A stretch of DNA of 64,000 nucleotides from Candidatus Saccharimonadota bacterium (lineage in GTDB: Bacteria; Patescibacteriota; Saccharimonadia; Saccharimonadales; JACDBH01), in contig JACDBH010000004.1 in assembly GCA_013694995.1 (NCBI GenBank), forward strand, positions 60,828 to 124,827, given 5' to 3'. This document shows, piece by piece, positions 9,476 through 55,724 of the stretch. The first letter of the stretch is position 1. Each line of letters begins with the position of its first letter. Under the pieces are notes generated by a model. That model was not told the DNA's origin and did not search any database. It saw nothing but the letters and a program-made list of their open reading frames with translations. The translations under genes and the position numbers were made by a program.

Positions 9476-9512
9476 ATAAGCCCACCACCAAAAGAAAAGG
9501 AGGTGATCCAGT

Positions 9513-10907: not shown

Positions 10908-11106
10908 AGTTGTAGTGGTACATAAGCACCCATCAGTGCTTGGTTGCAGCAATGCAGTCTACTAAATCTGAATGGCCAGGTTATTGGTTGAACCGCTCGT
11001 GTAAGACGAGAAAAACCAAGAAGTGTTGGAATATGACGTTTGGTCTTAATTAGTGCTGGCATTGTCACACTTCCCAAACATGTGTAGTTACAAAAATCAT
11101 AACGAT

Positions 11107-11210
11107 GTCCGAGCTTTACTGCTCCATCTTATGTTGTACATTACGTCCGAGCTTTACTGCTCCGTTTTGTATAGGTACAAGTATGTCCGAGCTTTACTGC
11201 TCCATCTTGT
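11107..11210. repeat. Three tandem direct repeats (38-40 bp period) with a conserved core GTCCGAGCTTTACTGCTCC(A/G)T(C/T)TTGT
   Basis: Core copies begin at 11107, 11145 and 11185. Intervening 14-16 bp segments are related (ttgtaca-like). Followed at 11217-11259 by an imperfect 11-bp-stem hairpin GCGGGGCTGAT...ATCAGCCCCCGC. Confidence 0.7.
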
Positions 11211-11364
11211 ACCGTAGCGGGGCTGATAACCGACCTTTTGGTCAACCATCAGCCCCCGCAGTACCCCCTACATAAACGAATTGTAATGATTTGACTTATC
11301 CCGTTTGCGTTAGCAGACGGTAGAAGTAAAGTCGTTCCTTAACAAAATAAGCATATACATAATA

Positions 11365-11393
11365 TTGACAATTAGAAACTGTTATGCTATAAT
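11365..11393 (+). promoter_or_regulatory. Sigma-70 type promoter (TTGACA-17-TATAAT) upstream of the first LPXTG gene
   Basis: Perfect -35 TTGACA (11365-11370) and -10 TATAAT (11388-11393) with a 17-bp spacer, about 128 bp upstream of the ATG at 11522. Confidence 0.55.
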
Positions 11394-11521
11394 GAGAGTA
11401 TACGATGATGATATCCATGTGAGGTGGAGAATATTCATCCTAAAGCTTTTTAACAATTAGCCATAATCCAAATGATGAATTAAGTATTTTAAGTTCTGTT
11501 TTCACTTTTTTAGGAGGTGAT

Positions 11522-13353: not shown

Positions 13354-14814
13354 ATGAATCAACCTATGTCTTTTATCAAAAAAATAATGCTCTCTGGCAC
13401 TGTGCTTGGGCTGCTTGGTATTTCGAGCATCGCGCTTTTAGGTAAAGGAAGTGCAGCCATATTGCCGCGTGATTGTGATGCAAATGCAATTTTTTACTGT
13501 GGTTCCCTGACGGTAGAAGAGCTGAAGAATGATTACAATACGAATGACGAGAACCGCTACGGCGATATCCCGGCTATTTTTGACCACTTTGGCATTAGCA
13601 AGACTGAAATAAACAGCATCAGCAGCAAGCGGGGAATAGTGAAAGCCGACAATACGGTGTGGATTGACGGCAAGCTTGTCGGAGTCAATGCAAAGACAGC
13701 AGGGCGTACCTATAAGTCAGGTAGCACGGCAATCCCTGGTGCATATGCATATGAACGTTCCCCTTCGGCATCTTTCTCAACTCCATCAACTACTATTGAC
13801 GCTATGATCGGCTATGAAAACGACGTACCGACCTTTGCGGTCTTAAGCGCCTGTGGCAACCCGGTTACCTGGGAGCATCCTCCGGCACCAGCCATAGAAA
13901 TGGAAAAGACTGTCCGTTCCGCCGACAATACCAAGTGGGTAGAGAGCGATACTTTTGCAAATAACAGCACGCTTACTTACCGGATAGTAGTACGAAGTAC
14001 AGGCAAGGCAGCGGATACGAATGTAGTCGTGAGGGACACTTTGCCTTCTTACCAGACGATTGTAGCCGGTTCAGTAAAAGTCAACGGCCAAGATGCAGGC
14101 GCAGCTGGCAACAGCATTGTTGGTGGAGGCTATACACTGTCTAAAGTTGATGCGGGTGCAACTGTAGAAGTTACCTTCCAAGTAAAAGTCTCAGCCCCAG
14201 CCGATAAATGCGGCGAAACTGCGTTCGTCAACAAAGCCAAGGTGGACGGTGACAGCACACCGCTAAAAGAAGATACTGCAAGCGGAAAAGTCAGAGTAGT
14301 ATGCGCCTCTATTAAATGTGAATCACTGACAGCTTCGAATCTGGCAATTAAAGTAGGTGAAGCCAGTACATTAACAGCAAAAGCGGCGCTAGAAAACGCA
14401 GTACTAAACAGCTACGAATTCCGTGTGAACGGCCAGGTTGTTCAGAATACGAGCAGCAATGTCTACACTTATACTGCCACTAAAGAAGGCACCTTCGCTG
14501 TTAAAGTAGTCGTCAAGACAGATAAAGGAGACGCTACAAGCTTAAGCTGTGAAGTAATAATCGGTGTAAGTAAAACTCCCGTTTGCCCATACAACCCACA
14601 GCTGCCTCCGAACAGTTCGGAATGTAAGAGGCCAGAAGTCTGTCCTTACAACTCCAGTCTTCCTCTGAACAGCCCCGACTGCAAGAGGCCTGAAGTTTTA
14701 GGTACAACGACTATCCTGCCTAAAACCGGTGCCGGTAACCTAGCTGCAATATTTACTATTACTAGTGTTGTTGGAGCAGCAGGACATAACCTAATAACCC
14801 GCCGCCGTAGCTAA
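13354..14814 (+). CDS. LPXTG-anchored cell-surface protein with DUF11-like domain and Cys-containing tandem repeats
   Basis: SD AAGGGGG. Signal peptide. DUF11-like segment VVVRDTLPSYQTIVAGSVKVNG. Two tandem 20-aa Cys repeats (CPYNPQLPPNSSECKRPEV / CPYNSSLPLNSPDCKRPEV). Sorting signal LPKTGAGNLAAIFTITSVVGAAGHNLITRRRS. Confidence 0.85.
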   Translation: MNQPMSFIKKIMLSGTVLGLLGISSIALLGKGSAAILPRDCDANAIFYCGSLTVEELKNDYNTNDENRYGDIPAIFDHFGISKTEINSISSKRGIVKADNTVWIDGKLVGVNAKTAGRTYKSGSTAIPGAYAYERSPSASFSTPSTTIDAMIGYENDVPTFAVLSACGNPVTWEHPPAPAIEMEKTVRSADNTKWVESDTFANNSTLTYRIVVRSTGKAADTNVVVRDTLPSYQTIVAGSVKVNGQDAGAAGNSIVGGGYTLSKVDAGATVEVTFQVKVSAPADKCGETAFVNKAKVDGDSTPLKEDTASGKVRVVCASIKCESLTASNLAIKVGEASTLTAKAALENAVLNSYEFRVNGQVVQNTSSNVYTYTATKEGTFAVKVVVKTDKGDATSLSCEVIIGVSKTPVCPYNPQLPPNSSECKRPEVCPYNSSLPLNSPDCKRPEVLGTTTILPKTGAGNLAAIFTITSVVGAAGHNLITRRRS

Positions 14815-15308: not shown

Positions 15309-15383
15309 GGTCCCTTCGTCTATCGGTTAGGACACTGGGTTTTCATCCCAGCAAGAGGAGTTCGACTCTCCTAGGGATCACCA
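15309..15383 (+). tRNA. tRNA-Glu (anticodon UUC), CCA encoded
   Basis: Manual cloverleaf fold. Acceptor GGTCCCT/AGGGATC with one G-U pair. Anticodon stem CTGGG/CCCAG with loop TTTTCAT, anticodon TTC. T-arm GGAGTTCGACTCTCC. 3' CCA at 15381-15383. Confidence 0.85.
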
Positions 15384-27365: not shown

Positions 27366-27754
27366 GGGGCTGTAAGCTTCGACATTTGGACATTTACAAG
27401 TTGGTTTTGCAGGTCGCTTGTCAGCGTTATAGGCACATCTGAATAGATGCAAAAGATTCACTTACTGCAATGGTAAATCGTGTGCAAAACATGCGGTTTG
27501 CTGGCGCATTACAAGCAGCTTAATTGTCGCTTGGGCTGTCGGTTCGACATCAGATAGAACCAACCAGTCTCATATTCATCTGATTGCTTAAATACTGTGA
27601 TCCATAGTATTTACTAAGAATTCAGGATTGCAGCACATAATGTTTTTGTCCGTTTTCATCATCATGGGCTAAAGAAACCATCCAAACAGACTATACCTGT
27701 AGACCGCCAACTAGTAACCGAATGGACGCGGGATCAAACCCGCCAGCTCCACCA
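27366..27754 (+). ncRNA. ssrA: tmRNA (ssrA)
   Basis: 5' end GGGGCTGTAAGCTTCGAC (compare E. coli GGGGCUGAUUCUGGAUUCGAC). 3' end GGACGCGGGATCAAACCCGCCAGCTCCACCA (compare E. coli GGACGGGGGUUCAAAUCCCCCCGGCUCCACCA). 7-bp acceptor with a G3-U pair. Internal tag reading frame ...MRFAGALQAA-stop (stop at 27521-27523). Confidence 0.8.
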
Positions 27755-30376: not shown

Positions 30377-31648
30377 GTGATGGATTTACCCCAAATAAAA
30401 CTACAGTTACCTAAGAGACCGATCACGATCGATCAAGACTTATTAAACAAGGCGCTGAAGTACGTCGACAGCTACTGGAAGAAATTAGAACGCCACCATA
30501 ACGAAGATTCAGGTACTCTTGTGGGCCTGCCATACCCTTACGTCGTACCTGCTGCCGATCCTAATGCCCAGTTCCGCTTTGAGGAACAATATTACTGGGA
30601 TAGTTACTTTACCGCTCTGGGAATGACAGGTGCAAAGCACCAAATACTTGTAGAAGGTATGCTTGAGAATCTGCTTTTCTTATTCCGCCGCTTCGGAATG
30701 ATTCCCAATGCTTCGCGCATGTACTTCACTAGCCGATCGCAACCGCCAATACTAACCAGTTTTATATTTCATGTTTACGAGACTTTTACAAAGGACTCAG
30801 AGTGGCTGCGCCAGAAAATTGATGTGGCAAAAGACGAATACGAAAAAGTATGGATGAGTAAAGGGCACCCGCAGTGGCACAACGTGCACAGGGGGCTAAG
30901 CCGCTATTACGATATCAATATGCTTCACGACTTGGCCGAAGCGGAAAGCGGCTGGGATATGACGCCGCGTTTTGAGCGCAAATGTTTGGATTTCTTACCG
31001 GTTGATTTAAATGCTCTATTGTACAAATATGAGACAGATTTTGCTCGTGCCGCAGAAATCTTGGGCGATACGGCGCAGTCGGCTGATTGGTCACGAAAAG
31101 CCCGTTCCCGTATGAATGCCATGGATGACCTAATGTGGGGAAAGCTTAGGGGCTTTTATTTTGATTACAACTATCAGCGCGGAGTCTTAGGTGATATATG
31201 GTCGTTAGCCGGCTTTTATCCGATGTGGGCGGGAATGGTAACGCCCGAACAAGCTAAAAAAATGGTCTTTAACCTCGACAAGTTTGAACGTAGAGGCGGA
31301 TTGACAGCCACTACCAGACCGTTAATTGATTATAGTGTATTATTTGGATCGCTCAAGGCACAGTGGGCTTACCCAAACGGCTGGGCACCGCTGCACTACA
31401 TCGTAATAGAAGGTCTAAAGCGTTATGGCTATCACGAGCATGCCAAACGCATAGCAACTGAATGGGTAGCTACCAATCTTAAATGGTTTGATAAAAACGG
31501 CGTATTTTTAGAGAAGTATAATGTTGTGAACAATAAAAAATCGCCTGTTGAAGGTCTGTACCCGTCTCAAACTGGTTTCGGTTGGTCAAACGCCATACTG
31601 GTTAATTTCGTCAAGGAGTTTAACCTTAAAGAAGGCTTATCCGACTAA
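30377..31648 (+). CDS. treF: Trehalase (GH37), cytoplasmic TreF-like
   Basis: Trehalase signature 1 FRFEEQYYWDSYF and signature 2 QWAYPNGWAPL. No signal peptide. Confidence 0.8.
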   Translation: MMDLPQIKLQLPKRPITIDQDLLNKALKYVDSYWKKLERHHNEDSGTLVGLPYPYVVPAADPNAQFRFEEQYYWDSYFTALGMTGAKHQILVEGMLENLLFLFRRFGMIPNASRMYFTSRSQPPILTSFIFHVYETFTKDSEWLRQKIDVAKDEYEKVWMSKGHPQWHNVHRGLSRYYDINMLHDLAEAESGWDMTPRFERKCLDFLPVDLNALLYKYETDFARAAEILGDTAQSADWSRKARSRMNAMDDLMWGKLRGFYFDYNYQRGVLGDIWSLAGFYPMWAGMVTPEQAKKMVFNLDKFERRGGLTATTRPLIDYSVLFGSLKAQWAYPNGWAPLHYIVIEGLKRYGYHEHAKRIATEWVATNLKWFDKNGVFLEKYNVVNNKKSPVEGLYPSQTGFGWSNAILVNFVKEFNLKEGLSD

Positions 31649-42697: not shown

Positions 42698-43825
42698 TTA
42701 GTTTATGACTAGGTAGTTGAAACGGCAGAGAGTGCCGGCTGGTGGCGCAGTTGAGGATGCTATCGAAAAGGCCGTTGCACTTATGTTCGTAACATAATAA
42801 GCAATCGCTGAGCACCCTGTACCGTTTGGAGTTAGAACCGCATGAGGGTTAGAGGTTGTATAGGCGGTACTAAAAGTAATGGTTGCCAATGTTCCCGTGC
42901 CGGTCCCCCCGCCAGTATTTATAGTCGCCGTACCGGCCGTGTCGCTGCCGCTGATGGAAGCGGTTGCCCCACCGCCGGCTGCGCCACCGACAATAATACT
43001 GGGTGTAGTACCACTGATATTAATGCGGTTTAATGTTATTTGATCAAAATTAATACCTTCAGCAGATACGATGCCCTTAACATTTAAATTACCATTAATG
43101 GTGGCTGCACCGCCGATATCAAGCTTGCCCCCGCCATTGATATCACCAGCTACAGTAAGGTTTTCTCCTAATGTGGTCCTCCCTACTACATCTAGGAAGC
43201 CGCCGACCGCCATATTGCCCGCGGCCTGGATGTCATTCGTAGTTAGGGAACTAAAACTACCTGAACCACTTATACTTATGGACGGGACACTTAAGACACC
43301 TCCGACTCGAAGTGCACCGGCAATATCTAGCGTGTCGCGCAAAACAACTTTACCAGTAATGACTGCATTAGACTCTATCGTAAGTATCTGTTTTGGATCA
43401 CCGACTATTGCATCCGAAGTTTTTAAAATCTCTAAATCTTCTTCGGTTAGTTCTGATGTCGCAAGTTTAACTTCGCTTTCTTTCTTATTCATATAATAAG
43501 TAACGACAAAAACCGCGCCGGAGGCAATAATCAGCAACAAGAAAAGCAGCAGGTATACATTAAAAGCACCAACAAAACGTTTAGCACCGGTGGCTCTAGG
43601 CCTAGACACGGCTTTTGGAGCCGAGGCTTCGCCGGTTGATTCGTCTGCCATCGCATCAACTGAGGATTTTTTCTGGGAGGGTTCTAAAGACTCCGACTCC
43701 TGGTTGACTTGCGCCATAAGCTCCTCAGGAGTTTTATCCGATTTTTGGTTTACCGAAGGCGTTAACCCTGCATCGTCCTCAGTAGTACCGGCCGGAACCT
43801 CGGTTGTTTTGTCTTTATCTTCCAT
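42698..43825 (-). CDS. Membrane-anchored beta-helical repeat protein (bactofilin/polymer-forming-like Gly-rich repeats)
   Basis: Acidic N-terminus, TM VYLLLFLLLIIASGAVFVVTYYM, then ~200 aa of short repeats such as GxLxVxGxxTxxG (LDVVGRTTLGENLTVAGDINGGGKLDIGGAATINGNLNVKG...). Confidence 0.5.
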   Translation of the reverse strand: MEDKDKTTEVPAGTTEDDAGLTPSVNQKSDKTPEELMAQVNQESESLEPSQKKSSVDAMADESTGEASAPKAVSRPRATGAKRFVGAFNVYLLLFLLLIIASGAVFVVTYYMNKKESEVKLATSELTEEDLEILKTSDAIVGDPKQILTIESNAVITGKVVLRDTLDIAGALRVGGVLSVPSISISGSGSFSSLTTNDIQAAGNMAVGGFLDVVGRTTLGENLTVAGDINGGGKLDIGGAATINGNLNVKGIVSAEGINFDQITLNRINISGTTPSIIVGGAAGGGATASISGSDTAGTATINTGGGTGTGTLATITFSTAYTTSNPHAVLTPNGTGCSAIAYYVTNISATAFSIASSTAPPAGTLCRFNYLVIN

Positions 43826-43913: not shown

Positions 43914-44657
43914 ATGTATTCTCGCGTTCTTCGAGCAGGGATGATGCTCGCCTTGGCAATTCTTATACTGCCGGTCATCGCACACGCCCAATATACTTCG
44001 CCAAGCTATGAAATAAACGAGATTTTTATCGGTGGTGGCGGCGAACTGGAGGCCTGTTCTAGTAGTTTCTGTTCACGCCAGTCTATAGGCGAAACTGCCG
44101 TTGGTGCCACTGGAAGCGGCAACTTTAGCGCCCAGGCTGGATTTAATACAACTGACGTAGAGGTATTAGCCGTATCCGTTAGTAACGGGAATATAGATCT
44201 CGGGGTACTCAATACCTCGGGAACTGCCGCTGCTAGTGCTAATTTCAGCATCAAGAACTATTTAACTAACGGTTACGTGGTCAAAATTTATGGGGATGCT
44301 CCTACTAATAGGACTGGGCCGGGCACAATTGCCTTAACGGCGCTTAATTCACCCAGCGTGTCTCAAGCCGGTACGGAACAGTTCGGCATTAATCTGGTGG
44401 CTAACGCGACACCAGGCATTGGAGTCAACCCCCAGCAAATTCCTAATGATTCGCCGGCATTTTCTTACGGGCAAGCAGCGGCAGGCTATAATACAGCCGA
44501 TTATTTCAAATATGTAAATGGTGATACGGTTGCGCTAAGCAACAGCAGTACTGGTCAAACAGACTTTACTGTATCAATTATAGCCAATATTGCTTCTAGC
44601 ACACGAGGCGGCCAATATCGGACGACGTTGGTAGTGTTGGTTATATCCACTTTCTAA
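43914..44657 (+). CDS. Secreted SCPU/Csu-pilin-like protein, single-domain paralog (candidate major subunit)
   Basis: Signal peptide ...LPVIAHA|QY. Cys pair CSSSFC near the N-terminus. C-terminus GGQYRTTLVVLVISTF compares with the CsuA/B terminus GDYKDTLLVTVNF as I recall it. The shared segment TEQFGINLVAN also occurs in the next two genes. Confidence 0.5.
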   Translation: MYSRVLRAGMMLALAILILPVIAHAQYTSPSYEINEIFIGGGGELEACSSSFCSRQSIGETAVGATGSGNFSAQAGFNTTDVEVLAVSVSNGNIDLGVLNTSGTAAASANFSIKNYLTNGYVVKIYGDAPTNRTGPGTIALTALNSPSVSQAGTEQFGINLVANATPGIGVNPQQIPNDSPAFSYGQAAAGYNTADYFKYVNGDTVALSNSSTGQTDFTVSIIANIASSTRGGQYRTTLVVLVISTF

Positions 44658-44760
44658 AGCTGTGGATAACTAAGTAATAAGCTATTGCATTGACATAAGG
44701 GTTTTGCTAGAGTAGGGTCAGTTAACAACTAAAATAAAAATATTATAGAAGGAGAAATGC

Positions 44761-45984
44761 ATGAGCGATTATGCAATTTCGCTGAAGCGTAGCAGTCTGC
44801 TGTTGGCCGCACTAGCCTTTACGGCTGTGCTTACCATTGCGAACCTCAACGTCTTTGGCGTCGGTAAAGTAGAAGCAGGTCAGTTCCAGAGCAGGAAAGT
44901 TGTACTCAGCAGCTCCTTAGCCGGAACAGAAACTGGGGACAACGTAGCTGGTAGCGCCACAAACGGTTCGGCTGCAGTCCATACATTCACGTTCACAACG
45001 CCAACAGGCAGCTCAACGACAATTGACGCGTTTGAGTTTACTTATTGTTTAGAAGCAATAGGAACATGTACGGCTCCTCCGGGGCTTAATGCAGACACGG
45101 CCGTACTAGTGAGTGCGACGGACGACGGTGGTGCATTTACGACAGTATTTGCGCTTGATGCAACCCAAACGACAGTAAGTCGTATTGGTATTGACGTTAA
45201 TGCAGGTGCTACAAACACTATTACCGCCGCAAGCGTTATAGTCATTCAATTTTCAACAATTGTTAACCCGTCTATTAATGACGATATATATGTTCGCATG
45301 GTTAGCTATTCGGTTGAAAACTATACAAGTGCAGTTGATGACGGTACGGTTGCATTCTCAATTGTTACACCCATCAACATCACAGCCCGTGTCAAGGAAA
45401 CGCTTGGCTTCTCAACGACTGCTGACACCGCAGGTGGTGTCCCTGCCGAAACTTCGGCCTGTGTACCACTTACAGGCAGTGGTGCCATCGCTCTAGGTGA
45501 TGCCAACAACACCTTGAGTATTGCCCAAGCTTACGATGACACTTCATACTTCCGTGTCTATACCAACGCGGCCAATGGTATAGCAGTCCAATATGCTGGT
45601 ATTACCCTTACTAAAGGTACGGATGATATCAATGCAATTGGCGGCACTGCTGCATCAAGTACTGTAGGTTCCGAACAATTTGGCTTCGGTATATATGCGG
45701 CTAACCCACCAACAGCCAATGTTGACAACGGTGGTTGGGGCGCCGCAGGACGTTTGACACTGAACGCTCAGTACGATGGTGGCGAAGGAACGATTACTAA
45801 CGGTGGTACGGCGACGTTCGCATACGATTCGGCAGCTCCTAACACTCCCAAATCAATTGCCACAGCTGGTTCATATGTTACTTGCGATACCGCAGAGGTC
45901 CGTTACATAGCTAACATCTCACCTCTGACACCCGCTGGTACATACCGAACAACGGTTGTCTACTACGCAGTACCAACGTACTAA
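44761..45984 (+). CDS. Secreted two-domain protein: N-terminal Cys-pair domain plus C-terminal SCPU/Csu-like domain
   Basis: SD AGGAGA. Signal peptide. N-domain (YCLEAIGTCTAPPG) is homologous to the N-domain of the next gene. C-domain contains GSEQFGFGIYAAN and ends AGTYRTTVVYYAVPTY. Confidence 0.5.
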   Translation: MSDYAISLKRSSLLLAALAFTAVLTIANLNVFGVGKVEAGQFQSRKVVLSSSLAGTETGDNVAGSATNGSAAVHTFTFTTPTGSSTTIDAFEFTYCLEAIGTCTAPPGLNADTAVLVSATDDGGAFTTVFALDATQTTVSRIGIDVNAGATNTITAASVIVIQFSTIVNPSINDDIYVRMVSYSVENYTSAVDDGTVAFSIVTPINITARVKETLGFSTTADTAGGVPAETSACVPLTGSGAIALGDANNTLSIAQAYDDTSYFRVYTNAANGIAVQYAGITLTKGTDDINAIGGTAASSTVGSEQFGFGIYAANPPTANVDNGGWGAAGRLTLNAQYDGGEGTITNGGTATFAYDSAAPNTPKSIATAGSYVTCDTAEVRYIANISPLTPAGTYRTTVVYYAVPTY

Positions 45985-45998
45985 TGTAGAATAAGACT

Positions 45999-47063
45999 AT
46001 GAAGATCCGGCCTGCTAAGCATATATATACGCGAGCAGGCCGGTTTCTATTTGCAGCCATGCTGGTATTACTACCAATTGCTACAGTATTAACGGATAAG
46101 ATAAGCGCCTTTGATTATGTCAGGTTGCCTAACCGAAGCCTGACTATAGGGGATACCACGCCAGCGGCTACAACGAGCTACGTATTTAGCTGGCAGTATC
46201 CTACCGCCACGACCTTAGGTTCTATCAAGTTACTTTTATGTACAGACCCCTATGTACTTGATACCTGTACTCTTACGAGTGGTGATTTTTCGGCCGCGAC
46301 CTTAACAGGCCAGAGCGGTGTTACCGGATTTAGTATTTTAAGCCAATCGGCAGGTGAGATTATTCTCAGCCGCGCTCCAAGTGGGGGTTCTAATATTCAG
46401 TCAACATACTCTTTCGCAAATATAGATAATCCAGGCGGATTGCCGGATGTATTCTATGTACGAATCTGGACTTATCCTACAGCAGATGCTACTGGTCCGC
46501 CGAATGAAATATCGAGCGTCGCCACTGCCACGACTGAAGTCATTAACATAACGACTATAGTTCCGCCGATTTTATTCTTTTGCACCGGCCTTACCGTTGA
46601 TAATTATTGCCAAAACGTCGTAGGAAACCAGATAGATTACGGTGACTTATCTTCAACGTCGACAGATTTCGCGACATCGCAGTTTGGCGTTGCTACCAAT
46701 GCTGTCAGTGGATATGTTGTTACTATCAATGGCAACACTATGACGTCTGGAAACAAGGCTATCACTGCCCTAAATGCACCGGCCGCAGCTGCCGTTGGTG
46801 TTGGCCAATTCGGGTTAAATTTGCGGGCAAATACAGCTCCGCCCGTAGGCCAAGATACCACTGGAGCGGGAACTGGTGTAGTTGATGCAAACTATAACAA
46901 TCCTGACCAATACCAGTTTAATGACGGGGATTTGGTAGCTAATGCGGCAACTGGCACACTTTTTAATACATTTACTTCTAGCTACATTGTCAATGTTCCG
47001 CCTGACCAGCCTGCTGGCGTATATAGCACAACAATTGTCTATATTTGCACAGCAAGTTTTTGA
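45999..47063 (+). CDS. Secreted two-domain protein: N-terminal Cys-pair domain plus C-terminal SCPU/Csu-like domain
   Basis: Signal/anchor helix. N-domain LLCTDPYVLDTCTLTSG. C-domain contains FFCTGLTVDNYCQ and GVGQFGLNLRAN, and ends AGVYSTTIVYICTASF. Confidence 0.5.
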   Translation: MKIRPAKHIYTRAGRFLFAAMLVLLPIATVLTDKISAFDYVRLPNRSLTIGDTTPAATTSYVFSWQYPTATTLGSIKLLLCTDPYVLDTCTLTSGDFSAATLTGQSGVTGFSILSQSAGEIILSRAPSGGSNIQSTYSFANIDNPGGLPDVFYVRIWTYPTADATGPPNEISSVATATTEVINITTIVPPILFFCTGLTVDNYCQNVVGNQIDYGDLSSTSTDFATSQFGVATNAVSGYVVTINGNTMTSGNKAITALNAPAAAAVGVGQFGLNLRANTAPPVGQDTTGAGTGVVDANYNNPDQYQFNDGDLVANAATGTLFNTFTSSYIVNVPPDQPAGVYSTTIVYICTASF

Positions 47064-47113
47064 TGTTACACTATTGCTAACTTGCTAATGTTTCGTAAAA
47101 AATAGGGGAGATC

Positions 47114-48160
47114 ATGAAGAAACTTGTCCGAACAATATCCTTACTTGCTGTAACTGCCGGTTTTTTATTACCCCAAATTGGCCAGCTAAATGCTCAGTCC
47201 AATGCGCTTAGTATTACGCCGCGCAAAGACTATACACTAAGAGCAGGTGAAGTTGTAAATGATACGCTGACTATAACCAATACTAACCGCGACTCACCTC
47301 TGCAACTAAGGCTTAGTGTAGTAGATTTTACCGCCCAGGATGAAACTGGTACTCCCCAGTTACTTAGGGGTGAAACGACACAAAAGACTGCTTGGTCGCT
47401 TAGAGACTTCATTGAAATGCCCGAACAAGTGGTGGTTGACGCTGGAGCAACGGTGCAAGTGCCAGTCGTTGTACGTATGGGCACTGAAGTTGGTGCCGGA
47501 AGCTACTATAGTGCGATTGAGTACGCAGCTGTTAATGATATAAGGGACGATCAAGTTAATATTTCGGCCTCTGGCGTTACCCTGATGTTTGTCAAAGTAC
47601 CAGGTCAAGCTCGGGAGCAATTGAATTTCCTACAATTTGGCGCATTCATTCCAGACCCAGGCGGCACAGGAGGAGCATTTACAGGCCTATTCTTTAATGA
47701 TCGTCCCAAAGTCCTCGCTTATAGACTTAAGAATGAAGGTAATATTGCTGAGCAGCCCAAGGCCGTTATTGTCGTAAAAAACTCCGGCGGCAAGGAAATG
47801 TATGTCATCCAAAACGCCAATCCGAAGAGTCAGATTGCCCTCTTGGGCCAGGCTCGCCGGTTCGATGCTTGTATTAGCCCCGAAACAGTTCAGCAAACAA
47901 CAGACAATGGGGTCGAGATTGACGCTGTAATCTGCGGCGATACGAATTTCAAACCAGGCCGCTATACAGCTGAGCTGTCTGTCTTATATGGGGAGAACGG
48001 CAACGAAACACGCGAAATCACTGCCAAAGCAACATTTTGGTATCTTCCTTGGTGGTTTGTCGGCTTAGTAGTAGCGGGAATTGGCCTAGCCGTAGGTGTC
48101 GGCTTCTACATTGTTAGTCGAGTTAAGAATTATCGCGGTCGTAAAACCCGCCGCCGCTAA
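47114..48160 (+). CDS. Membrane-anchored secreted protein with PapD-like (pilus chaperone) N-terminal pattern and C-terminal TM plus basic tail
   Basis: SD GGGGAG. Signal peptide. LSITPRKDYTLRAGEVVNDTLTITNTNRDSPLQLRLSVVDF resembles the PapD-like chaperone N-terminal strand pattern. C-terminal TM WWFVGLVVAGIGLAVGVGFYIV followed by SRVKNYRGRKTRRR. Confidence 0.45.
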   Translation: MKKLVRTISLLAVTAGFLLPQIGQLNAQSNALSITPRKDYTLRAGEVVNDTLTITNTNRDSPLQLRLSVVDFTAQDETGTPQLLRGETTQKTAWSLRDFIEMPEQVVVDAGATVQVPVVVRMGTEVGAGSYYSAIEYAAVNDIRDDQVNISASGVTLMFVKVPGQAREQLNFLQFGAFIPDPGGTGGAFTGLFFNDRPKVLAYRLKNEGNIAEQPKAVIVVKNSGGKEMYVIQNANPKSQIALLGQARRFDACISPETVQQTTDNGVEIDAVICGDTNFKPGRYTAELSVLYGENGNETREITAKATFWYLPWWFVGLVVAGIGLAVGVGFYIVSRVKNYRGRKTRRR

Positions 48161-48243
48161 TATCTAGCAAAAAATAATTTAAGCTGCTCTACACTAACCT
48201 GGTATACAGACATATCAGATGATATGATGGTTATGGTTTCATA

Positions 48244-49161
48244 ATGAAAAACATACAAAAAGCACTAACCTTAGTGGTTTTAGCTCTAAGTTTACTTATA
48301 AACTTGCCTACGTCCGTGTCGGGCCAATCCTCCCCGCCGCTTGTTAATCCAAATGACCAAGGCATAGGTATGCAAGGCAAACTTATCCAGCCGCCGCCTA
48401 GCGATGCCCCTACGATTACACTGCCATCAAACGGGCAGGTTTTTACTGAATTACCGGTGATTGTGACCGGCCTTTGTACTGACGGACTTTTTTTGCGTGT
48501 ATTTAAAAACAATGTCTTCGGTGGATCGACAGTGTGCGACGGTGGCAGCTATAGCGTCCAGATTGACTTGTTTCCAGGGCAGAACCAGATCACAGCTCGA
48601 GTTTATGACAATCTCGACCAATCTAGTCCAGTGTCCAATATAGTAACCGTGACTTATGCCATTGACGATCCATTAATACCCGGCTTGCCGGACGATGTCA
48701 GCCAACGAATAACTTTAACTAGTACGTTTGCCCGTAAAGGTGCGGACCCTGGTGAAGAGCTGGTTTGGCCCATAACACTTAGTGGTGGCCGCCCGCCTTA
48801 CGCCATTAGTGTTAATTGGGGAGATGGCAAGGAGGATTTATTGTCACAGGATTCGGCCAGTACCTTTGACATCAAACATATTTATCAGAACCCCGGTGTA
48901 TATAAAGTCATAATTAAGGGGACTGATGCAGATGGTGTTAGTGCGTTCCTTCAATTAGTCGGAATTGCCAATGGCGCTGTGACAGTGGGTACGGGGGCAC
49001 AGGGCAATGACCAGCCAGTCGTAACCAGAACCAGGGTCTTATGGCAGCCAGCACTTATTATGTTCCCGTTAGTGCTGGCTGCGTTTTGGCTTGGTAAGCG
49101 CTACCAACTGAAGCGTGTTAGATACCGCATTAAAAACCGCATTTTACCTATTGATAAGTAA
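48244..49161 (+). CDS. Secreted PKD-domain protein with C-terminal TM anchor
   Basis: Signal peptide. PKD signature VNWGDGKED...HIYQNPGVYKVIIKGTDADG. C-terminal TM LIMFPLVLAAFWLG followed by a KR-rich tail. Confidence 0.6.
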   Translation: MKNIQKALTLVVLALSLLINLPTSVSGQSSPPLVNPNDQGIGMQGKLIQPPPSDAPTITLPSNGQVFTELPVIVTGLCTDGLFLRVFKNNVFGGSTVCDGGSYSVQIDLFPGQNQITARVYDNLDQSSPVSNIVTVTYAIDDPLIPGLPDDVSQRITLTSTFARKGADPGEELVWPITLSGGRPPYAISVNWGDGKEDLLSQDSASTFDIKHIYQNPGVYKVIIKGTDADGVSAFLQLVGIANGAVTVGTGAQGNDQPVVTRTRVLWQPALIMFPLVLAAFWLGKRYQLKRVRYRIKNRILPIDK

Positions 49162-52743: not shown

Positions 52744-54033
52744 ATGCTTAAGAAGTTTAAACGCCCAAGTTTTGGCCGCACAAAAAAGTCGGAACCAGCC
52801 CAACCAGACCACATCATCGGACTGGATATAGGCACCGAAAACGTTAAGGCACTGATTGGTAGGATTAAAGGTGATGAAATAGAAATTATTGGTGTAGGAA
52901 GGGCGCACCAGCACCTGGCTGATATGCAGGCCGGGGCAATTGCAGATATTGCCGGTGTAGTCACTAATTGTGATGAAGCCCTAGACGCAGCCGAAAAAAT
53001 GGCCGGGGTATCAGTCCGAGGCACTGTTATTGGTATTGCCGGCGAGCTAGTTAAAGGCACTACAACTACAGTTAAATTTACACGCAAAGACCCCAGCAAG
53101 CCGCTAGATATACCTGAAATTGAAAAGATTATAGGTATGGTACAAGCCAAGGCTCTGGGAAAAGCCAAGCAGCAGCTGGCGTGGGAACTGGGTGGCAAGG
53201 AAGTAGAAATCAGATTGGTTAACAGCGCACTAGTAAGTATAACGATTGACGGTTATGTCGTTAGTAGCCCAATGGGATTCCAGGGCCGCGATGTCATGAT
53301 CCAGCTTTATACGGCCTTTGCACCGCTTATACACATAGGTGCTTTGGAACGCACAGCGCACGAACTTGATCTCGATTTATTAGCCGTTGCGGCTGAGCCG
53401 TTCGCTGTAGCCAGAAGCATAGTTGGAAATGATCCAAACGCCAACATGAGCGCAATTCTTATGGATGTCGGTGGTGGTACGACCGATATTGCCATATTAA
53501 ACGAAGGCGGAGTCGAAGGAACTAAAATGTTCGGTATCGGCGGCCGGGCTTTTACCCGCTCGATTGAGCGCGATCTATCAACTGATTTCGACCAAGCTGA
53601 AATACTAAAGCTGGCGATTGATTCCAACAAGATCCCCCAGCACAAGCGTGGCCAAATTACAGATGCCTTGAATAAAACACTTGAGGTTTGGACTTCCGGT
53701 GTCGAGCTGGCCTTGGGCGAATTTACCAAGCTCGACCATCTTCCGCACCGTATTTTGTTATGCGGCGGCGGCTCATCTTTAGGAATGCTGATGGATACTT
53801 TGGCCGAGACCCGGTGGTATGGCGGCTTGCCATTTACCCGCAAACCTGTCGTAGAGCACATTGAGCCGATCCAGGTTACAGGTATTGTTGACAAAACCGG
53901 CGTTGTAACCGACCATACTTACATAACCGCGATGGGGTTGCTGCGAGTTGGGCTTGATACAATAAACCAGCAAAATCCTGATCATAATGCCGGATCAATT
54001 AAGGAACGAATAAATCGACTACTAAGCGTATGA
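52744..54033 (+). CDS. ftsA: Cell-division actin-like ATPase FtsA
   Basis: IIGLDIGTENVKALIG (phosphate-1), MDVGGGTTDIAIL (phosphate-2), and the region aligning to E. coli FtsA VVDIGGGTMDIAVYTGGAL. 429 aa. Confidence 0.7.
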   Translation: MLKKFKRPSFGRTKKSEPAQPDHIIGLDIGTENVKALIGRIKGDEIEIIGVGRAHQHLADMQAGAIADIAGVVTNCDEALDAAEKMAGVSVRGTVIGIAGELVKGTTTTVKFTRKDPSKPLDIPEIEKIIGMVQAKALGKAKQQLAWELGGKEVEIRLVNSALVSITIDGYVVSSPMGFQGRDVMIQLYTAFAPLIHIGALERTAHELDLDLLAVAAEPFAVARSIVGNDPNANMSAILMDVGGGTTDIAILNEGGVEGTKMFGIGGRAFTRSIERDLSTDFDQAEILKLAIDSNKIPQHKRGQITDALNKTLEVWTSGVELALGEFTKLDHLPHRILLCGGGSSLGMLMDTLAETRWYGGLPFTRKPVVEHIEPIQVTGIVDKTGVVTDHTYITAMGLLRVGLDTINQQNPDHNAGSIKERINRLLSV

Positions 54034-55724
54034 CACCCCCGAAGAACAAAGAGAGCGTATATATTGATGTCGATGATGAGATAACAAACATCATCGAGAA
54101 AGTTAAAACCAGCGAAAGCAAGATTGTCGCTCTGGTGCTGCCTAAACGCGCCACTGTACTTCAAAGCGTTGTGAACATGAAGCTGCTTAAAAAAGCTGCG
54201 CTCAGCTCCAAGAAAAGTATCGTTTTGATTACCTCCGAAGTTGGCCTGCTACCACTGGCCGGTGCTGCCGGTTTACATGTAGCTAAAAGTTTGCAGAGTA
54301 AGCCGGTTATTCCACCCATGCCGAAAACCGTAGCTGACGATGACGAAGTGACCGAAGATATAGGGGACGAAGTGCCAATTGATGCAACCACTTCGGTTGG
54401 TACCTTGGCAGCGGCTGCTGCAATAGCTGACGATGACGATACCGAGACGATTGAGCTGGATAACATTGATTTAGATGGAACAGAAGCCGGGGCGGTTAAA
54501 AAAGGTATGGCCGAGCGTCTAAAACACCTTAAAGTGCCTAACTTTGAGAGATTTCGGCTTGTTTTCTTTTTAGCAGGCTTAGGCCTGCTACTCTTAGTTG
54601 GTGGACTGATAATGGCATTTATCATCATGCCCAAGGCCCATATAACTATCAAGACCGATACGACCAGTGTAGTAAGTTCATTTGATTTTATAGCCAGTGC
54701 AAATGTTGCCGAACTAAATATCGATGAGAAGAAAATACCGGCGGTATATAAAGAAGTTATTAAAAAAGATAGTGAAAAAGCCCCTGCAACAGGACAAAAA
54801 GATACCGGTACTAAAGCCACTGGCACTATGACACTTAAGAACTGCGCAGCAACCGAAGGTAGTGTCGTCGTACCGGTCGGAACCAGGTTTACTAATAGCG
54901 GGCTAAGTTTTGCAAGCGACGAGGCAGTGACATTGCCGGAGAGTTCGTTTAGCAGCGGTGGTACGTGTAAGACTGACACCCGTAGTGTTGACGTAACTGC
55001 CGAGAGTCCTGGGGACAACTACAATCTTAGTAGCCGGACATATACATCTAATCTGGGTAGCGTAACGGCTTCTGGCTCGGCAATGAGTGGTGGTACAACC
55101 AATATCATCAAGATTGTCAGTCAGGGAGATATTGATGCCGCAGTCGCCAAGATGAAAAGCCGTTTGGACAAGCAAGCCGTAGACGAGTTAAAGGCGCTAA
55201 TGGATACAGAACAGTTATTTACATTGAACGAAAGTAAATTCTCGACCGAACCAAAGATTGCCTCTACTCCCGCTCTAGACCACGAAGCCACCGAATTTAC
55301 TGTAACTTCCGAAACAACATACTCCACGCTGGGTATTAAGCGTGAATATTTAAGCCAGGTTATTGCATCAGATGTTGAGGATAAGATAGACACTCAGAAA
55401 CAGGCAATTACCAATGATGGCATTGATACGGCTATATTCCGGCTTAATAATCTTGCAAATCCGAAAGAGGCCTTTATCAGTTTTCGAACATCTGTTGTTG
55501 CCGGTCCGGAGTTAGATGAAGTAGCAATTAAGGAAGCGGTGCGGGGCAAAAAACGAGGACAGGTCGAAAGTTATATAAGTAGCCAGCCAGGTGTCAAAGA
55601 GGTAATTGTTGAGTATAGCCCATTCTGGATTTACTCTACACCCAAATCTACTAAGAAGATTCAAATAACAATAGAAAAAACCGCTGAAACACAGGCAGAA
55701 CAAGCAGCTGATGGATCGGAATAA
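54030..55724 (+). CDS. Hypothetical bitopic membrane protein (cytoplasmic acidic N-domain, one TM, large extracytoplasmic domain); not FtsZ
   Basis: TM FRLVFFLAGLGLLLLVGGLIMAFIIMP at ~aa 175-200. No tubulin GGGTGSG motif. Overlaps the ftsA stop. Confidence 0.5.
   Translation: MTPPKNKESVYIDVDDEITNIIEKVKTSESKIVALVLPKRATVLQSVVNMKLLKKAALSSKKSIVLITSEVGLLPLAGAAGLHVAKSLQSKPVIPPMPKTVADDDEVTEDIGDEVPIDATTSVGTLAAAAAIADDDDTETIELDNIDLDGTEAGAVKKGMAERLKHLKVPNFERFRLVFFLAGLGLLLLVGGLIMAFIIMPKAHITIKTDTTSVVSSFDFIASANVAELNIDEKKIPAVYKEVIKKDSEKAPATGQKDTGTKATGTMTLKNCAATEGSVVVPVGTRFTNSGLSFASDEAVTLPESSFSSGGTCKTDTRSVDVTAESPGDNYNLSSRTYTSNLGSVTASGSAMSGGTTNIIKIVSQGDIDAAVAKMKSRLDKQAVDELKALMDTEQLFTLNESKFSTEPKIASTPALDHEATEFTVTSETTYSTLGIKREYLSQVIASDVEDKIDTQKQAITNDGIDTAIFRLNNLANPKEAFISFRTSVVAGPELDEVAIKEAVRGKKRGQVESYISSQPGVKEVIVEYSPFWIYSTPKSTKKIQITIEKTAETQAEQAADGSE

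What the first reader, a model, noticed from the sequence alone, without database searches (positions are those of the whole stretch)
43914..49161. Five-gene surface-fibre locus: three SCPU/Csu-pilin-like paralogs, a membrane-anchored PapD-like protein and a PKD membrane protein, with no usher, in an apparently monoderm genome
Directly visible in the sequence:
- Three consecutive secreted paralogs share internal segments (TEQFGINLVAN / SEQFGFGIYAAN / VGQFGLNLRAN).
- All three end in a near-identical C-terminal strand: GGQYRTTLVVLVISTF, AGTYRTTVVYYAVPTY and AGVYSTTIVYICTASF.
- The second and third carry an extra, mutually homologous N-terminal Cys-pair domain, consistent with tip/adaptor subunits.

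From established knowledge:
- The C-terminal motif and the N-terminal Cys pair resemble Spore-Coat-Protein-U (SCPU) / Csu-type archaic chaperone-usher pilins. The CsuA/B terminus, as I recall it, is GDYKDTLLVTVNF.
- The fourth gene has a PapD-like N-terminal strand pattern but carries a C-terminal TM helix with a basic tail. A membrane tether would be the expected monoderm adaptation of a periplasmic chaperone.
- Classical SCPU/Csu systems require an outer-membrane usher. None is present here, and the rest of the window (LPXTG proteins, no OM biogenesis genes) indicates a monoderm.

The locus is divergently transcribed from a membrane-anchored beta-helical protein gene only 88 bp away. This could be an undescribed usher-independent pilus/fibre assembly pathway. 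If the lineage is an epibiont, it is a candidate host-attachment organelle.
Basis: partly seen in the sequence, partly recalled or inferred. Interest (0 to 1): 0.8.

Follow-up and report, generated by a model that had tools for sequence, protein, structure and literature searches.

The report
Pam pilus operon of Saccharibacteria

Summary
Five co-directional genes sit at 43914-49161: three secreted paralogs sharing a C-terminal domain, a two-beta-domain protein with a C-terminal TM helix, and a second TM-anchored protein. The window is a Candidatus Saccharibacteria MAG contig (GCA_020063845.1).

NCBIfam names the locus. Gene 1 is PamT (308.7 bits, cutoff 240). Genes 1-3 carry the Pam pilin C-domain. 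Gene 5 is PamR (398.3 bits, cutoff 300). These models match the Pam pilus of Ca. Mycosynbacter amalyticus (bioRxiv 10.64898/2026.03.03.709456). That study used cryo-EM to show donor-strand-exchange filaments of two-domain pilins, and inferred TM-anchored PapD/FimC-like chaperones, a PamR anchor and no usher.

Three details are not:
- SCPU/Csu membership fails the HMM test.
- The subunit roles are reversed: the single-domain protein is the proposed tip, and the two-domain proteins form the shaft.
- The system is no longer undescribed.

One addition is not in the preprint. The chaperone's closest relative outside CPR is the Firmicutes WxL-interacting protein (DUF916/WxLIP). It is the top PDB fold hit (9i1y/9i25). 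hhalign gives 98% probability full-length and 92-95% for the N domain without signal peptide and TM helix. Homology of the pilin C-domain to the WxL domain is only hinted (E 0.003).

The parts
43914..44657 (+). pamT: single-domain secreted pilin, the proposed tip subunit. NCBI calls the start at 43941 (238 aa).
   Evidence: NF058579 CPR_pilus_PamT scores 308.7 bits (cutoff 240) and NF058581 scores 157 bits. It is a paralog of gene 3's C-domain. Orthologs sit at the same position in L001-L003 and L007. The tip role is inferred from the AlphaFold models in the preprint.
44761..45984 (+). Two-domain Pam pilin: signal peptide, N-terminal beta-sandwich with Cys96/Cys103, linker, and Pam C-domain. 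It occupies the position that pamA holds in M. amalyticus.
   Evidence: NF058581 scores 93.1 bits on residues 240-407. It is 31% identical to gene 3 over 240 aa. The N-terminal domains align. The pamA-position assignment is an inference from the accession order given.
45349..45414 (+). Gene 2 inter-domain linker (VAFSIVTPINITARVKETLGFS), the candidate donor strand.
   Evidence: A conserved alternating-hydrophobic segment lies between the two domains in 7 orthologs. The donor-strand role is inferred from the PamA/PamB cryo-EM structures.
45999..47063 (+). Two-domain Pam pilin: N-terminal beta-sandwich with Cys81/Cys90, linker, and C-domain with Cys195/Cys204. It occupies the position that pamE holds in M. 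amalyticus.
   Evidence: NF058581 scores 175.6 bits on residues 208-354. The AF2 model has pLDDT 92.9: N-domain strands 47-177, a low-confidence linker at 183-188, and C-domain 192-352. There are 708 relatives at E<=1e-3.
46518..46583 (+). Gene 3 inter-domain linker (VATATTEVINITTIVPPILFFC), the candidate donor strand.
   Evidence: V188, P189, P190, L192, F194 and C195 are invariant or nearly invariant in 76 relatives. The segment is conserved in the loci. Part of it is low-pLDDT in the monomer model. The role is inferred.
47114..48160 (+). Membrane-anchored two-Ig-domain assembly chaperone (PamC/PamD-like; N domain homologous to WxLIP/DUF916).
   Evidence: The AF2 model has pLDDT 86.7 and pTM 0.76. 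Foldseek PDB top hits are WxLIP 9i1y/9i25 (E 5e-10), followed by the CU chaperones CfaA, Caf1M, FaeE, FimC, SafB, CsuC and DraB (E 4e-8 to 1e-6). 68 of 70 relatives hit PF06030. hhalign against WxLIP gives 98.1% full-length, and 91.6-94.8% without signal peptide and TM.
47492..47605 (+). Gene 4 N-domain beta-hairpin with a disordered tip (residues 127-164), the candidate strand donated to the pilin groove.
   Evidence: Strands 129-139 and 154-162 flank a loop with pLDDT below 50 at 144-151. G129, Y132, A134 and Y137 are invariant. The hairpin's first strand falls within the region that hhalign aligns to WxLIP. The WxLIP hairpin is predicted to order on binding and complete the WxL sandwich. 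The role here is inferred.
48044..48115 (+). Gene 4 C-terminal transmembrane helix, followed by a basic tail (RGRKTRRR).
   Evidence: The model shows a helix at 313-341. There is a hydrophobic stretch at 308-337.
48244..49161 (+). pamR: RbmA-like two-domain protein with a C-terminal TM helix, the proposed terminator and membrane anchor of the pilus.
   Evidence: NF058578 CPR_pilus_PamR scores 398.3 bits (cutoff 300). Sub-threshold Glucodextran_B and PKD hits appear. The TM helix is at residues 267-284. A conserved N-terminal segment NDQGIGMQGKLIQPPP is present. The role is inferred.
42698..43825 (-). Divergent conserved neighbour: a membrane-anchored repeat (beta-helix-like) protein, called 'tail fibre-like' in the preprint. 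Its role in the pilus is unknown.
   Evidence: It is conserved beside the operon in L001-L003 and L007. It has one TM segment at 81-113 and a weak bactofilin hit (E 0.013). The preprint reports it as central to the conserved neighbourhood.

Best explanation
This is a compact pam operon (pamT, two two-domain pilins, one chaperone, pamR) of a Saccharibacteria (CPR) bacterium. It encodes an usher-independent donor-strand-exchange pilus.

Proposed mechanism:
1. All five proteins are exported by Sec.
2. The gene-4 protein stays tethered in the cytoplasmic membrane by its C-terminal helix. It caps the open groove of each pilin's incomplete Ig-like C-domain with a strand from its N-domain hairpin.
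3. That strand is then exchanged for the inter-domain linker strand of the next pilin, so the fibre grows from its base.
4. PamT, which has only the acceptor domain, sits at the distal tip. The two-domain pilins form the shaft. PamR inserts its N-terminal strand into the last pilin and anchors the fibre through its own TM helix.

What is shown and what is inferred:
- Shown elsewhere by cryo-EM: the filament architecture and donor-strand exchange of PamA and PamB.
- Shown here: family membership, domain architecture, TM anchors, the chaperone fold, conserved synteny and the host lineage.
- Inferred: the order of subunits, the identity of the donor strands, the chaperone mechanism, and a role in contacting the host.
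For: - NCBIfam equivalogs score above their curated cutoffs for PamT and PamR. The Pam pilin C-domain is present in genes 1-3.
- The preprint describes the same parts list and the same neighbourhood of ATP synthase and a tail-fibre-like gene.
- The gene order T / pilin / pilin / chaperone / R equals the order implied by the M. amalyticus accession numbers 289-287-285-284-282.
- The gene-3 model shows N-domain, linker and C-domain.
- The gene-4 model shows two beta domains plus a TM helix, and its fold hits include WxLIP and chaperone-usher chaperones.
- Synteny atpAGDC / divergent gene / five genes / mnmA-alaS is conserved, wholly or in part (three contigs are short), in six Saccharimonadales MAG loci.
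- The window is a Candidatus Saccharibacteria MAG contig.
- LPKTG sortase substrates elsewhere in the window fit a monoderm envelope.
Against: - No direct sequence comparison with M. amalyticus PamA, B, C, D or E was possible, so the orthology of genes 2-4 rests on domain models, fold and gene order.
- Gene 4 has no NCBIfam hit.
- No complex (multimer) prediction could be run, so donor-strand exchange in these particular proteins is untested.
- The locus lacks the pamB-pamC pair of M. amalyticus within the window.
- Fold searches with the pilin model gave only generic Ig-like hits.
- The assembly model in the preprint is itself based on AlphaFold.
Confidence: 0.9

Rival explanations
1. The locus is a WxL-cluster-like cell-surface complex rather than a long pilus. 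The membrane-anchored WxLIP-like protein would stably bind and display the secreted proteins by strand complementation, as proposed for Firmicutes WxL/WxLIP, without polymerisation.
For: - The gene-4 family is most similar to WxLIP: PF06030 hits in 68 of 70 members, top PDB fold hits 9i1y/9i25, and hhalign 98% full-length or 92-95% for the N domain.
- The cluster logic is the same: a small single-domain protein, larger proteins sharing its C-terminal domain, and a TM-anchored two-Ig protein.
- AF2 predicts that a WxLIP strand completes the WxL sandwich.
Against: - The PamT and PamR equivalog hits tie the locus to a system whose pilins were seen as filaments by cryo-EM.
- The pilins have a conserved inter-domain linker suited to donation.
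- No WxL Pfam hit and no W-x-L motifs are present.
- The hhalign comparison of the pilin C-domain with WxL is not significant (Prob 9.8%, E 0.003).
- No small LPXTG protein is in the locus.
Confidence: 0.06
2. The locus is an archaic (SCPU/Csu-type) chaperone-usher pilus whose usher is encoded elsewhere in the genome.
For: - The fold hits of gene 4 include CsuC, FimC, Caf1M and other CU chaperones.
- The C-terminal strand pattern G-x-Y-x-T-T-h-x-h resembles the F strands of CU pilins.
Against: - No SCPU or Fimbrial hit appears for the window pilins at E<=1 or among the 76 gene-3 relatives. No PapD_N or PapD_C hit appears for the window chaperone, and PapD is absent from the 25 most-hit families of its 70 relatives.
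- The chaperone is membrane-anchored.
- The host is a Saccharibacterium. By established knowledge these are monoderm, and sortase substrates are present in the window.
- No usher-sized beta-barrel gene is in the locus or within 10 kb either side.
- The preprint found no trans-envelope machinery.
Confidence: 0.02
3. The locus is a sortase-assembled Gram-positive-type pilus or covalently wall-anchored adhesins.
For: The genome has LPKTG proteins, so a sortase is probably present somewhere. The gene-3 fold hits include sortase pilins and MSCRAMMs.
Against: - None of the five proteins carries an LPXTG motif.
- No sortase lies within 10 kb.
- The fold hits are generic Ig-like matches to the N-terminal domain with low TM-scores.
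- The three pilins end in a free C-terminal beta-strand (...STF, ...PTY, ...ASF).
Confidence: 0.02

Closest known systems
Pam pili of Candidatus Mycosynbacter amalyticus (PamA/B/E/T pilins, PamC/D chaperones, PamR). Source: bioRxiv 10.64898/2026.03.03.709456; NCBIfam NF058578, NF058579, NF058581.
   Same: - PamT and PamR match at equivalog level, and the Pam pilin C-domain is present in three paralogs.
- The pilins have the same N-domain / linker / C-domain architecture.
- The chaperone is a TM-anchored two-Ig protein.
- There is no usher.
- The ATP-synthase and tail-fibre-like neighbourhood is the same.
- The host is a Saccharimonadia lineage.
   Different: - The operon is compact: one chaperone and two two-domain pilins in the window, with no pamB-pamC pair.
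- The pilin in the pamA position is 407 aa, against about 55 kDa for PamA, so it probably lacks the roughly 100-aa insert.
- Orthology of genes 2-4 to named M. amalyticus genes was not tested directly.
- No structural or proteomic data exist for this organism.
WxL clusters of Firmicutes (short WxL, long WxL, and WxLIP = DUF916 + DUF3324 + TM helix). Sources: Hassan et al. 2023, PMC10599100; PDB 9i1y and 9i25.
   Same: - The chaperone-like protein has the same architecture and size: signal peptide, two Ig-like domains, a C-terminal TM helix and a basic tail, about 330-365 aa.
- Its N domain is detectably homologous to DUF916.
- A disordered hairpin is predicted to complete the partner's beta-sandwich.
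- The partners are one single-domain protein plus larger proteins that share its C-terminal domain.
- The host is monoderm.
   Different: - There is no WxL Pfam hit and no Trp-x-Leu motif in the pilins.
- The profile match of the pilin C-domain to WxL is not significant.
- The chaperone C domain is not detectably DUF3324.
- There is no small LPXTG protein in the locus.
- WxL proteins are described as peptidoglycan-bound surface proteins, not as polymers.
- PamR has no counterpart in the WxL loci I fetched (L011-L020).
Classical and archaic chaperone-usher pili of diderm bacteria (Pap/Fim, Caf1, CFA/I, Csu/SCPU).
   Same: - The pilin domain is an incomplete Ig-like fold completed by a donated strand.
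- The chaperone is a two-Ig-domain protein, and fold hits to CfaA, Caf1M, FaeE, FimC, SafB, CsuC and DraB were found.
- Tip, shaft and terminator subunits are encoded in one operon.
   Different: - There is no usher and no outer membrane.
- The chaperone is membrane-tethered.
- The donor strand is an internal linker between two domains rather than an N-terminal extension.
- The filament is extended rather than coiled.
- There is no HMM-level similarity to the SCPU, Fimbrial or PapD families.
Chaperone-free donor-strand fibres of monoderms and archaea: TasA, archaeal bundling pili and threads, and cannulae. TasA and bundling pili are from my own knowledge. Threads and cannulae appear in the papers listed.
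   Same: They are fibres held together by donor-strand complementation, without an usher, in cells lacking an outer membrane.
   Different: Those systems are described as having no dedicated PapD-like chaperone. Their subunit folds and families are different, and no sequence relation was seen here.

Membership tests
Pam pilus system (CPR) | PamT single-domain pilin (NF058579 equivalog) | tested here: met
   Gene 1 scores 308.7 bits against a cutoff of 240, E 2.4e-92, covering residues 10-247.
Pam pilus system (CPR) | Pam pilin C-terminal domain (NF058581) in the pilin paralogs | tested here: met
   Genes 1, 2 and 3 score 157, 93.1 and 175.6 bits against a cutoff of 55.
Pam pilus system (CPR) | PamR RbmA-like TM-anchored protein (NF058578 equivalog) | tested here: met
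   Gene 5 scores 398.3 bits against a cutoff of 300, E 1.5e-119. Its C-terminal TM helix is at residues 267-284.
Pam pilus system (CPR) | Shaft pilins with N-terminal beta-sandwich, single linker strand and truncated Ig-like C-domain | tested here: met
   The gene-3 AF2 model (pLDDT 92.9) has strands 47-177, a linker at 183-197 and a C-domain to 352. The gene-2 N-domain and linker align with those of gene 3.
Pam pilus system (CPR) | PapD/FimC-like two-domain chaperone with a C-terminal TM helix (PamC/PamD) | tested here: met
   The gene-4 model has two beta domains and a helix at 313-341. Foldseek hits CU chaperones at E 4e-8 to 1e-6. Direct comparison with WP_260763277.1 and WP_260763284.1 was not possible.
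Pam pilus system (CPR) | Polymerisation by donor-strand exchange of the linker into the neighbouring C-domain | not testable with these tools
   No multimer prediction is available. Only a conserved linker motif was seen. Cryo-EM evidence exists for PamA and PamB only.
Pam pilus system (CPR) | CPR host and conserved ATP-synthase / tail-fibre-like neighbourhood | tested here: met
   The source is a Candidatus Saccharibacteria MAG. atpAGDC and the divergent gene lie upstream here and in L001, L003 and L007; the short contig L002 shows only the divergent gene.
SCPU / archaic (Csu) chaperone-usher pilus | SCPU domain (PF05229) or Fimbrial domain in the subunits | tested here: not met
   There are no Pfam hits at E<=1 for genes 1-3. 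None of the 25 families hit by 76 gene-3 relatives is SCPU or Fimbrial. The fold searches returned no Csu or SCPU pilin among the listed hits.
SCPU / archaic (Csu) chaperone-usher pilus | Soluble periplasmic PapD_N + PapD_C chaperone | tested here: not met
   Gene 4 has no PapD Pfam hit. PapD is absent from the 25 most-hit families of 70 relatives. The protein carries a TM anchor. The similarity is at fold level only.
SCPU / archaic (Csu) chaperone-usher pilus | Outer-membrane usher encoded with the pilins | tested here: not met
   No usher-sized gene is in the locus or within 10 kb either side. The neighbours are ATP synthase, mnmA, alaS and an ftsA-like gene. The rest of the genome was not searched.
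WxL cluster (Firmicutes) | WxLIP N-terminal domain (PF06030 / DUF916) in a TM-anchored protein | tested here: inconclusive
   The window protein scores 13.4 bits, below the 27.3 cutoff. However, 68 of 70 relatives hit PF06030, best E 1.5e-7. hhalign N domain vs N domain gives 94.8%, E 5e-8. The top PDB fold hit is WxLIP. This indicates homology at superfamily level, not family membership.
WxL cluster (Firmicutes) | WxLIP C-terminal domain (DUF3324) | tested here: not met
   hhalign C domain vs C domain gives Prob 7.2%, E 0.005. DUF3324 is not among the 25 most-hit Pfam families of the 70 relatives.
WxL cluster (Firmicutes) | WxL domain with two Trp-x-Leu motifs in the secreted partners | tested here: not met
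   There is no WxL Pfam hit. The equivalent positions read G-Y-x-V and Y-x-T-T-h-x-Y. hhalign gives Prob 9.8%, E 0.0033.
Sortase-dependent pilus | LPXTG sorting signal on the pilins and an adjacent pilin sortase | tested here: not met
   No LPXTG motif is in the five proteins. The only LPKTG proteins are at 11.5-14.8 kb. No sortase lies within 10 kb.

The most novel reading that the evidence does not exclude
The Pam pili of CPR bacteria and the WxL/WxLIP clusters of Firmicutes may be two branches of one ancient monoderm system. In both, a membrane-tethered two-Ig chaperone completes the incomplete beta-sandwich of secreted partners by strand donation. If so, Pam pilins would not be strictly CPR-exclusive in origin. 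WxL proteins might also undergo donor-strand exchange or oligomerise, or Pam pili might have evolved from a non-polymerising WxL-like display complex.

The chaperone half of this claim is fairly well supported here. The pilin/WxL half is only hinted, by a collinear match of G-Y-x-V to G-W-x-L and of VPPxQPxGVYxTTxxY to VPGSTxKxAxxYxTTLTWxL. The Pam preprint does not mention WxL, DUF916, SCPU, Csu or TasA. I could not see any publication attached to PDB 9i1y/9i25, so the link may already have been noted elsewhere.
Probability: 0.45. Interest if true: 0.6.

Novelty: already known. Interest (0 to 1): 0.3.

Why it matters
Pam pili are among the most abundant proteins of a cultured CPR parasite, and they are the proposed first contact with its host. 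Recognising the operon in other Saccharibacteria therefore marks candidate host-attachment genes in uncultured epibionts. This window adds little beyond that, because current NCBI models already name three of the five genes. The useful increment is the relation of the chaperone to Firmicutes WxLIP. It offers solved structures (9i1y, 9i25) as templates for the Pam chaperone-pilin interaction, and it suggests that usher-free, chaperone-assisted strand complementation is older and wider among monoderm bacteria than the CPR-only picture implies.

Tried and rejected
- **PDB sequence searches.** The five proteins and the two family profiles gave nothing significant. The best result was EfmWxLIP1 at E 0.1 for the chaperone profile. 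The Pam cryo-EM chains are either not in that copy or too distant.
- **afdb50 library.** It was unavailable, so Firmicutes WxL and WxLIP AlphaFold models could not be compared.
- **Protein-database search with an EfmWxLIP1 fragment.** It returned only 7 fragments. I obtained full WxLIP and WxL genes from Firmicutes plasmids instead.
- **Promoter and terminator scans.** They gave no more sites than shuffled sequence, so the operon structure rests on spacing and co-orientation only.
- **Other pilus types.** Sortase pilus and classical CU pilus readings were rejected on the tests listed under membership. A type IV pilus reading was also considered; none of the Pfam or NCBIfam scans of the five proteins returned a type IV pilin family, and no secretion ATPase lies within 10 kb.

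Full report
**What is there**

The interval 43914-49161 holds five co-directional ORFs of 247, 407, 354, 348 and 305 aa, separated by 103, 14, 50 and 83 bp. A 375-aa gene lies on the other strand, with its start 88 bp upstream of gene 1.

The three secreted proteins are true paralogs:
- Gene 1 vs gene 3: 34% identity over 154 aa, E 4e-14 to 6e-18.
- Gene 2 vs gene 3: 31% over 240 aa, E 3e-9 to 2e-11.
- No further paralog exists in the 64-kb window.

Genes 2 and 3 share an extra N-terminal domain with an aligned Cys pair (C96/C103 and C81/C90). Genes 4 and 5 end in a hydrophobic helix plus a basic tail.

The window belongs to contig JAITZI010000001.1 (340,519 bp) of assembly GCA_020063845.1, annotated as Candidatus Saccharibacteria bacterium. 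Two LPKTG sortase-substrate proteins lie at 11.5-14.8 kb. This fits the monoderm envelope expected of Saccharibacteria, which is established knowledge.

**Identification**

Pfam gives no SCPU, Fimbrial, PapD or WxL hit at E<=1 for any of the proteins. It gives only sub-threshold WxLIP_PGBD for gene 4 (E 0.082) and Glucodextran_B/PKD for gene 5.

NCBIfam release 20 identifies the system:

| Gene | Model | Bits | Cutoff |
|---|---|---|---|
| 1 | NF058579 'CPR-type pilus protein PamT' | 308.7 | 240 |
| 1, 2, 3 | NF058581 'Pam pilus system pilin subunit' C-domain | 157, 93.1, 175.6 | 55 |
| 5 | NF058578 'pilus system RbmA-like protein PamR' | 398.3 | 300 |

The source of those names is a 2026 preprint (bioRxiv 10.64898/2026.03.03.709456). 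Its main points are:
- Cryo-EM at 2.8 and 3.6 A of filaments from Ca. Mycosynbacter amalyticus showed two pilins, PamA and PamB. Each has a nine-strand N-terminal sandwich, a single linker strand and a truncated Ig-like C-domain.
- That C-domain accepts the linker of the neighbouring subunit.
- From AlphaFold and Foldseek, the operon also encodes PamE (another pilin), PamT (a single-domain tip), PamC and PamD (FimC/PapD-like chaperones with a C-terminal TM helix), and PamR (RbmA-like, TM-anchored, a proposed terminator and anchor).
- No trans-envelope machinery was found.

**How the window compares**

atpA-G-D-C lies immediately upstream, and the divergent membrane-anchored repeat protein lies between it and pamT.

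The order here is pamT, pilin, pilin, chaperone, pamR. The M. amalyticus accession numbers (289 T, 287 A, 285 E, 284 D, 282 R, 280 B, 277 C) imply the same order. This is an inference from numbering, not a tested alignment.

The pamB-pamC pair is absent from the window.

The same arrangement, flanked by mnmA and alaS, recurs in six other Saccharimonadales MAG loci at 24-68% protein identity. Three of those contigs are short and show only part of it. The gene-4 and gene-3 families have 725 and 708 cluster representatives at E<=1e-3.

**Structure tests run here**

*Gene 3.* The model (76-sequence alignment, pLDDT 92.9) has an N-terminal sandwich at 47-177, a low-confidence linker at 183-188, and a C-domain at 192-352. 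The pTM of 0.52 fits two loosely coupled domains. The linker region V188-P189-P190-x-L192-x-F194-C195 is invariant or nearly so. An alternating-hydrophobic I-x-I motif precedes it in the orthologs of both gene 2 and gene 3. This is what a donor strand would look like.

*Gene 4.* The model (70 sequences, pLDDT 86.7, pTM 0.76) has two beta domains and a helix at 313-341. A hairpin at 129-162 has a disordered tip at 144-151. Foldseek against the PDB returns:
- first, the E. faecium WxL-interacting protein (9i1y_A at E 5.3e-10; 9i25_C, 'bound to long WxL', at 1.5e-9);
- further down, interleaved with other proteins, chaperone-usher chaperones: CfaA 3.8e-8, Caf1M 2.4e-7, FaeE 3.1e-7, FimC 4.9e-7, SafB 5.4e-7, CsuC 8.1e-7 and DraB 1.3e-6.

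Other tandem-Ig proteins (RbmA, transglutaminase, CEP192) score in the same range as the chaperones. So 'PapD-like' is a fold-level statement and not family membership.

*Gene-3 fold searches.* These gave only generic Ig-like hits driven by the N-domain.

**The WxLIP connection**

68 of the 70 gene-4 relatives hit Pfam PF06030 (WxLIP_PGBD, formerly DUF916), with a best E of 1.5e-7. PapD is not among the 25 most-hit families.

The family profile's best match among all PDB sequences is EfmWxLIP1, although only at E 0.1.

I took eleven full-length WxLIP genes and their WxL neighbours from Firmicutes plasmids and ran hhalign:

| Comparison | Prob | E-value | Aligned columns |
|---|---|---|---|
| Pam chaperone vs WxLIP, full length | 98.1% | 6.9e-14 | 293 |
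| Ectodomains, signal peptide and TM removed | 91.6% | 8e-7 | 102 |
| N domain vs N domain | 94.8% | 5e-8 | 102 |
| C domain vs C domain | 7.2% | 0.005 | 72 |
| Cross-domain and cross-family controls | 0.2-2.2% | 0.02-0.33 | |

Hassan et al. 2023 (PMC10599100) describe WxL clusters as a short WxL protein, a long WxL protein with the same C-terminal domain, and a WxLIP of 337-365 aa with two Ig-like domains and a TM helix. [quoted passage not shown] That is the same logic as the Pam operon.

For the pilins the link is weak. There are no WxL Pfam hits. hhalign of a broad Pam C-domain profile against WxL cores gives Prob 9.8% and E 0.0033, against E 0.66 for the reversed control. Only the C-terminal strand is confidently aligned (VPPxQPxGVYxTTxxY against VPGSTxKxAxxYxTTLTWxL). 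G-Y-x-V and G-W-x-L pair collinearly only in the relaxed alignment.

I treat homology of the chaperone N domain as likely, and homology of the whole system as an open possibility. The Pam preprint does not mention WxL, DUF916, SCPU, Csu or TasA.

The mechanistic reading is right: an usher-independent donor-strand fibre with a membrane-tethered PapD-like chaperone, in a monoderm and possibly epibiotic lineage. It matches what has since been published.

Four parts are not supported:
- SCPU/Csu family membership, which fails the HMM tests.
- The assignment of the two-domain proteins as tip or adaptor subunits. In the solved filaments they form the shaft, and the single-domain PamT is the proposed tip.
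- The label 'PKD membrane protein' for PamR. PKD-like similarity is only sub-threshold.
- The claim of being undescribed.

**Novelty and score**

The system is already known, and three of the five genes pass curated equivalog or domain cutoffs. The locus is a compact one-chaperone form, common among Saccharimonadales MAGs. I score interest at 0.3. The residual value lies in the relation of the chaperone to WxLIP and in the open question of whether Pam pilins and WxL domains share ancestry.

**Limits**

- No multimer prediction was possible.
- The AlphaFold DB fold library was unavailable.
- Only the window and 10 kb either side of gene 4 were inspected for an usher or sortase, not the whole genome.

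Noticed in passing
window 11522-13039 and 13354-14814 (+): Two paralogous secreted proteins with DUF11 domains end in LPKTG, a hydrophobic stretch and RRR(S/A). They are sortase substrates, which supports a monoderm envelope.
   Followed up: partly
window 42698-43825 (-): The divergent neighbour is conserved beside the pam operon in L001-L003 and L007. It has a long N-terminal cytoplasmic part, one TM segment and Gly/Thr-rich repeats, with only a weak bactofilin-like hit (E 0.013). This is the 'tail fibre-like' protein of the preprint, and its function is unknown.
   Followed up: partly
window 43914 vs 43941: NCBI calls PamT at 238 aa, starting 27 nt downstream of the first ATG. The NCBIfam match also starts at residue 10.
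   Followed up: no
window 43998-44057 and 48352-48426: PamT has a conserved N-terminal segment, SPxYE(I/M)xE(I/V)F(I/L)GxGGELDxC. It loosely resembles the I-N-I-T linker motif of the two-domain pilins, although the preprint describes PamT as lacking a linker strand. PamR orthologs conserve GIGM(Q/E)G(K/R)(L/I)xQPPP near the mature N-terminus, which is a candidate for the strand proposed to insert into the last pilin.
   Followed up: partly
L001:4730-6082 (-), and L001:2502-3605: In one related MAG a 450-aa secreted repeat protein is inserted on the opposite strand between pamT and the next pilin. In the same MAG the tail-fibre-like gene has the same orientation as the operon instead of being divergent.
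   Followed up: partly
window 8001-12000: GC content rises to about 0.51, against about 0.45 elsewhere. The 464-aa ORF at 9513-10907 has no Pfam hit, and long antisense ORFs overlap it. This may be foreign DNA or a compositionally odd surface-protein gene.
   Followed up: no
window 30377-31648 (+): This is a trehalase-family glycoside hydrolase (E 9.5e-95) in a reduced Saccharibacteria genome. It may be relevant if the host is a trehalose-mycolate-bearing actinobacterium.
   Followed up: no
window 27366-27754 and 15309-15383: A tmRNA gene (80.8 bits) and a tRNA-Glu(UUC) gene are the only RNA genes found in the window.
   Followed up: no
window 54030-55724 (+): A 564-aa ORF directly after an FtsA/PilM-like gene has no Pfam hit at E<=1e-3 in my scan. 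A weak Baseplate_J hit is on record in the precomputed tables.
   Followed up: no
L011 and L015 (Enterococcus plasmids): In two Firmicutes WxL loci a lytic polysaccharide monooxygenase gene lies next to the WxLIP gene. Several loci also carry BspA-like or pectate-lyase-like adhesin genes with the cluster.
   Followed up: no
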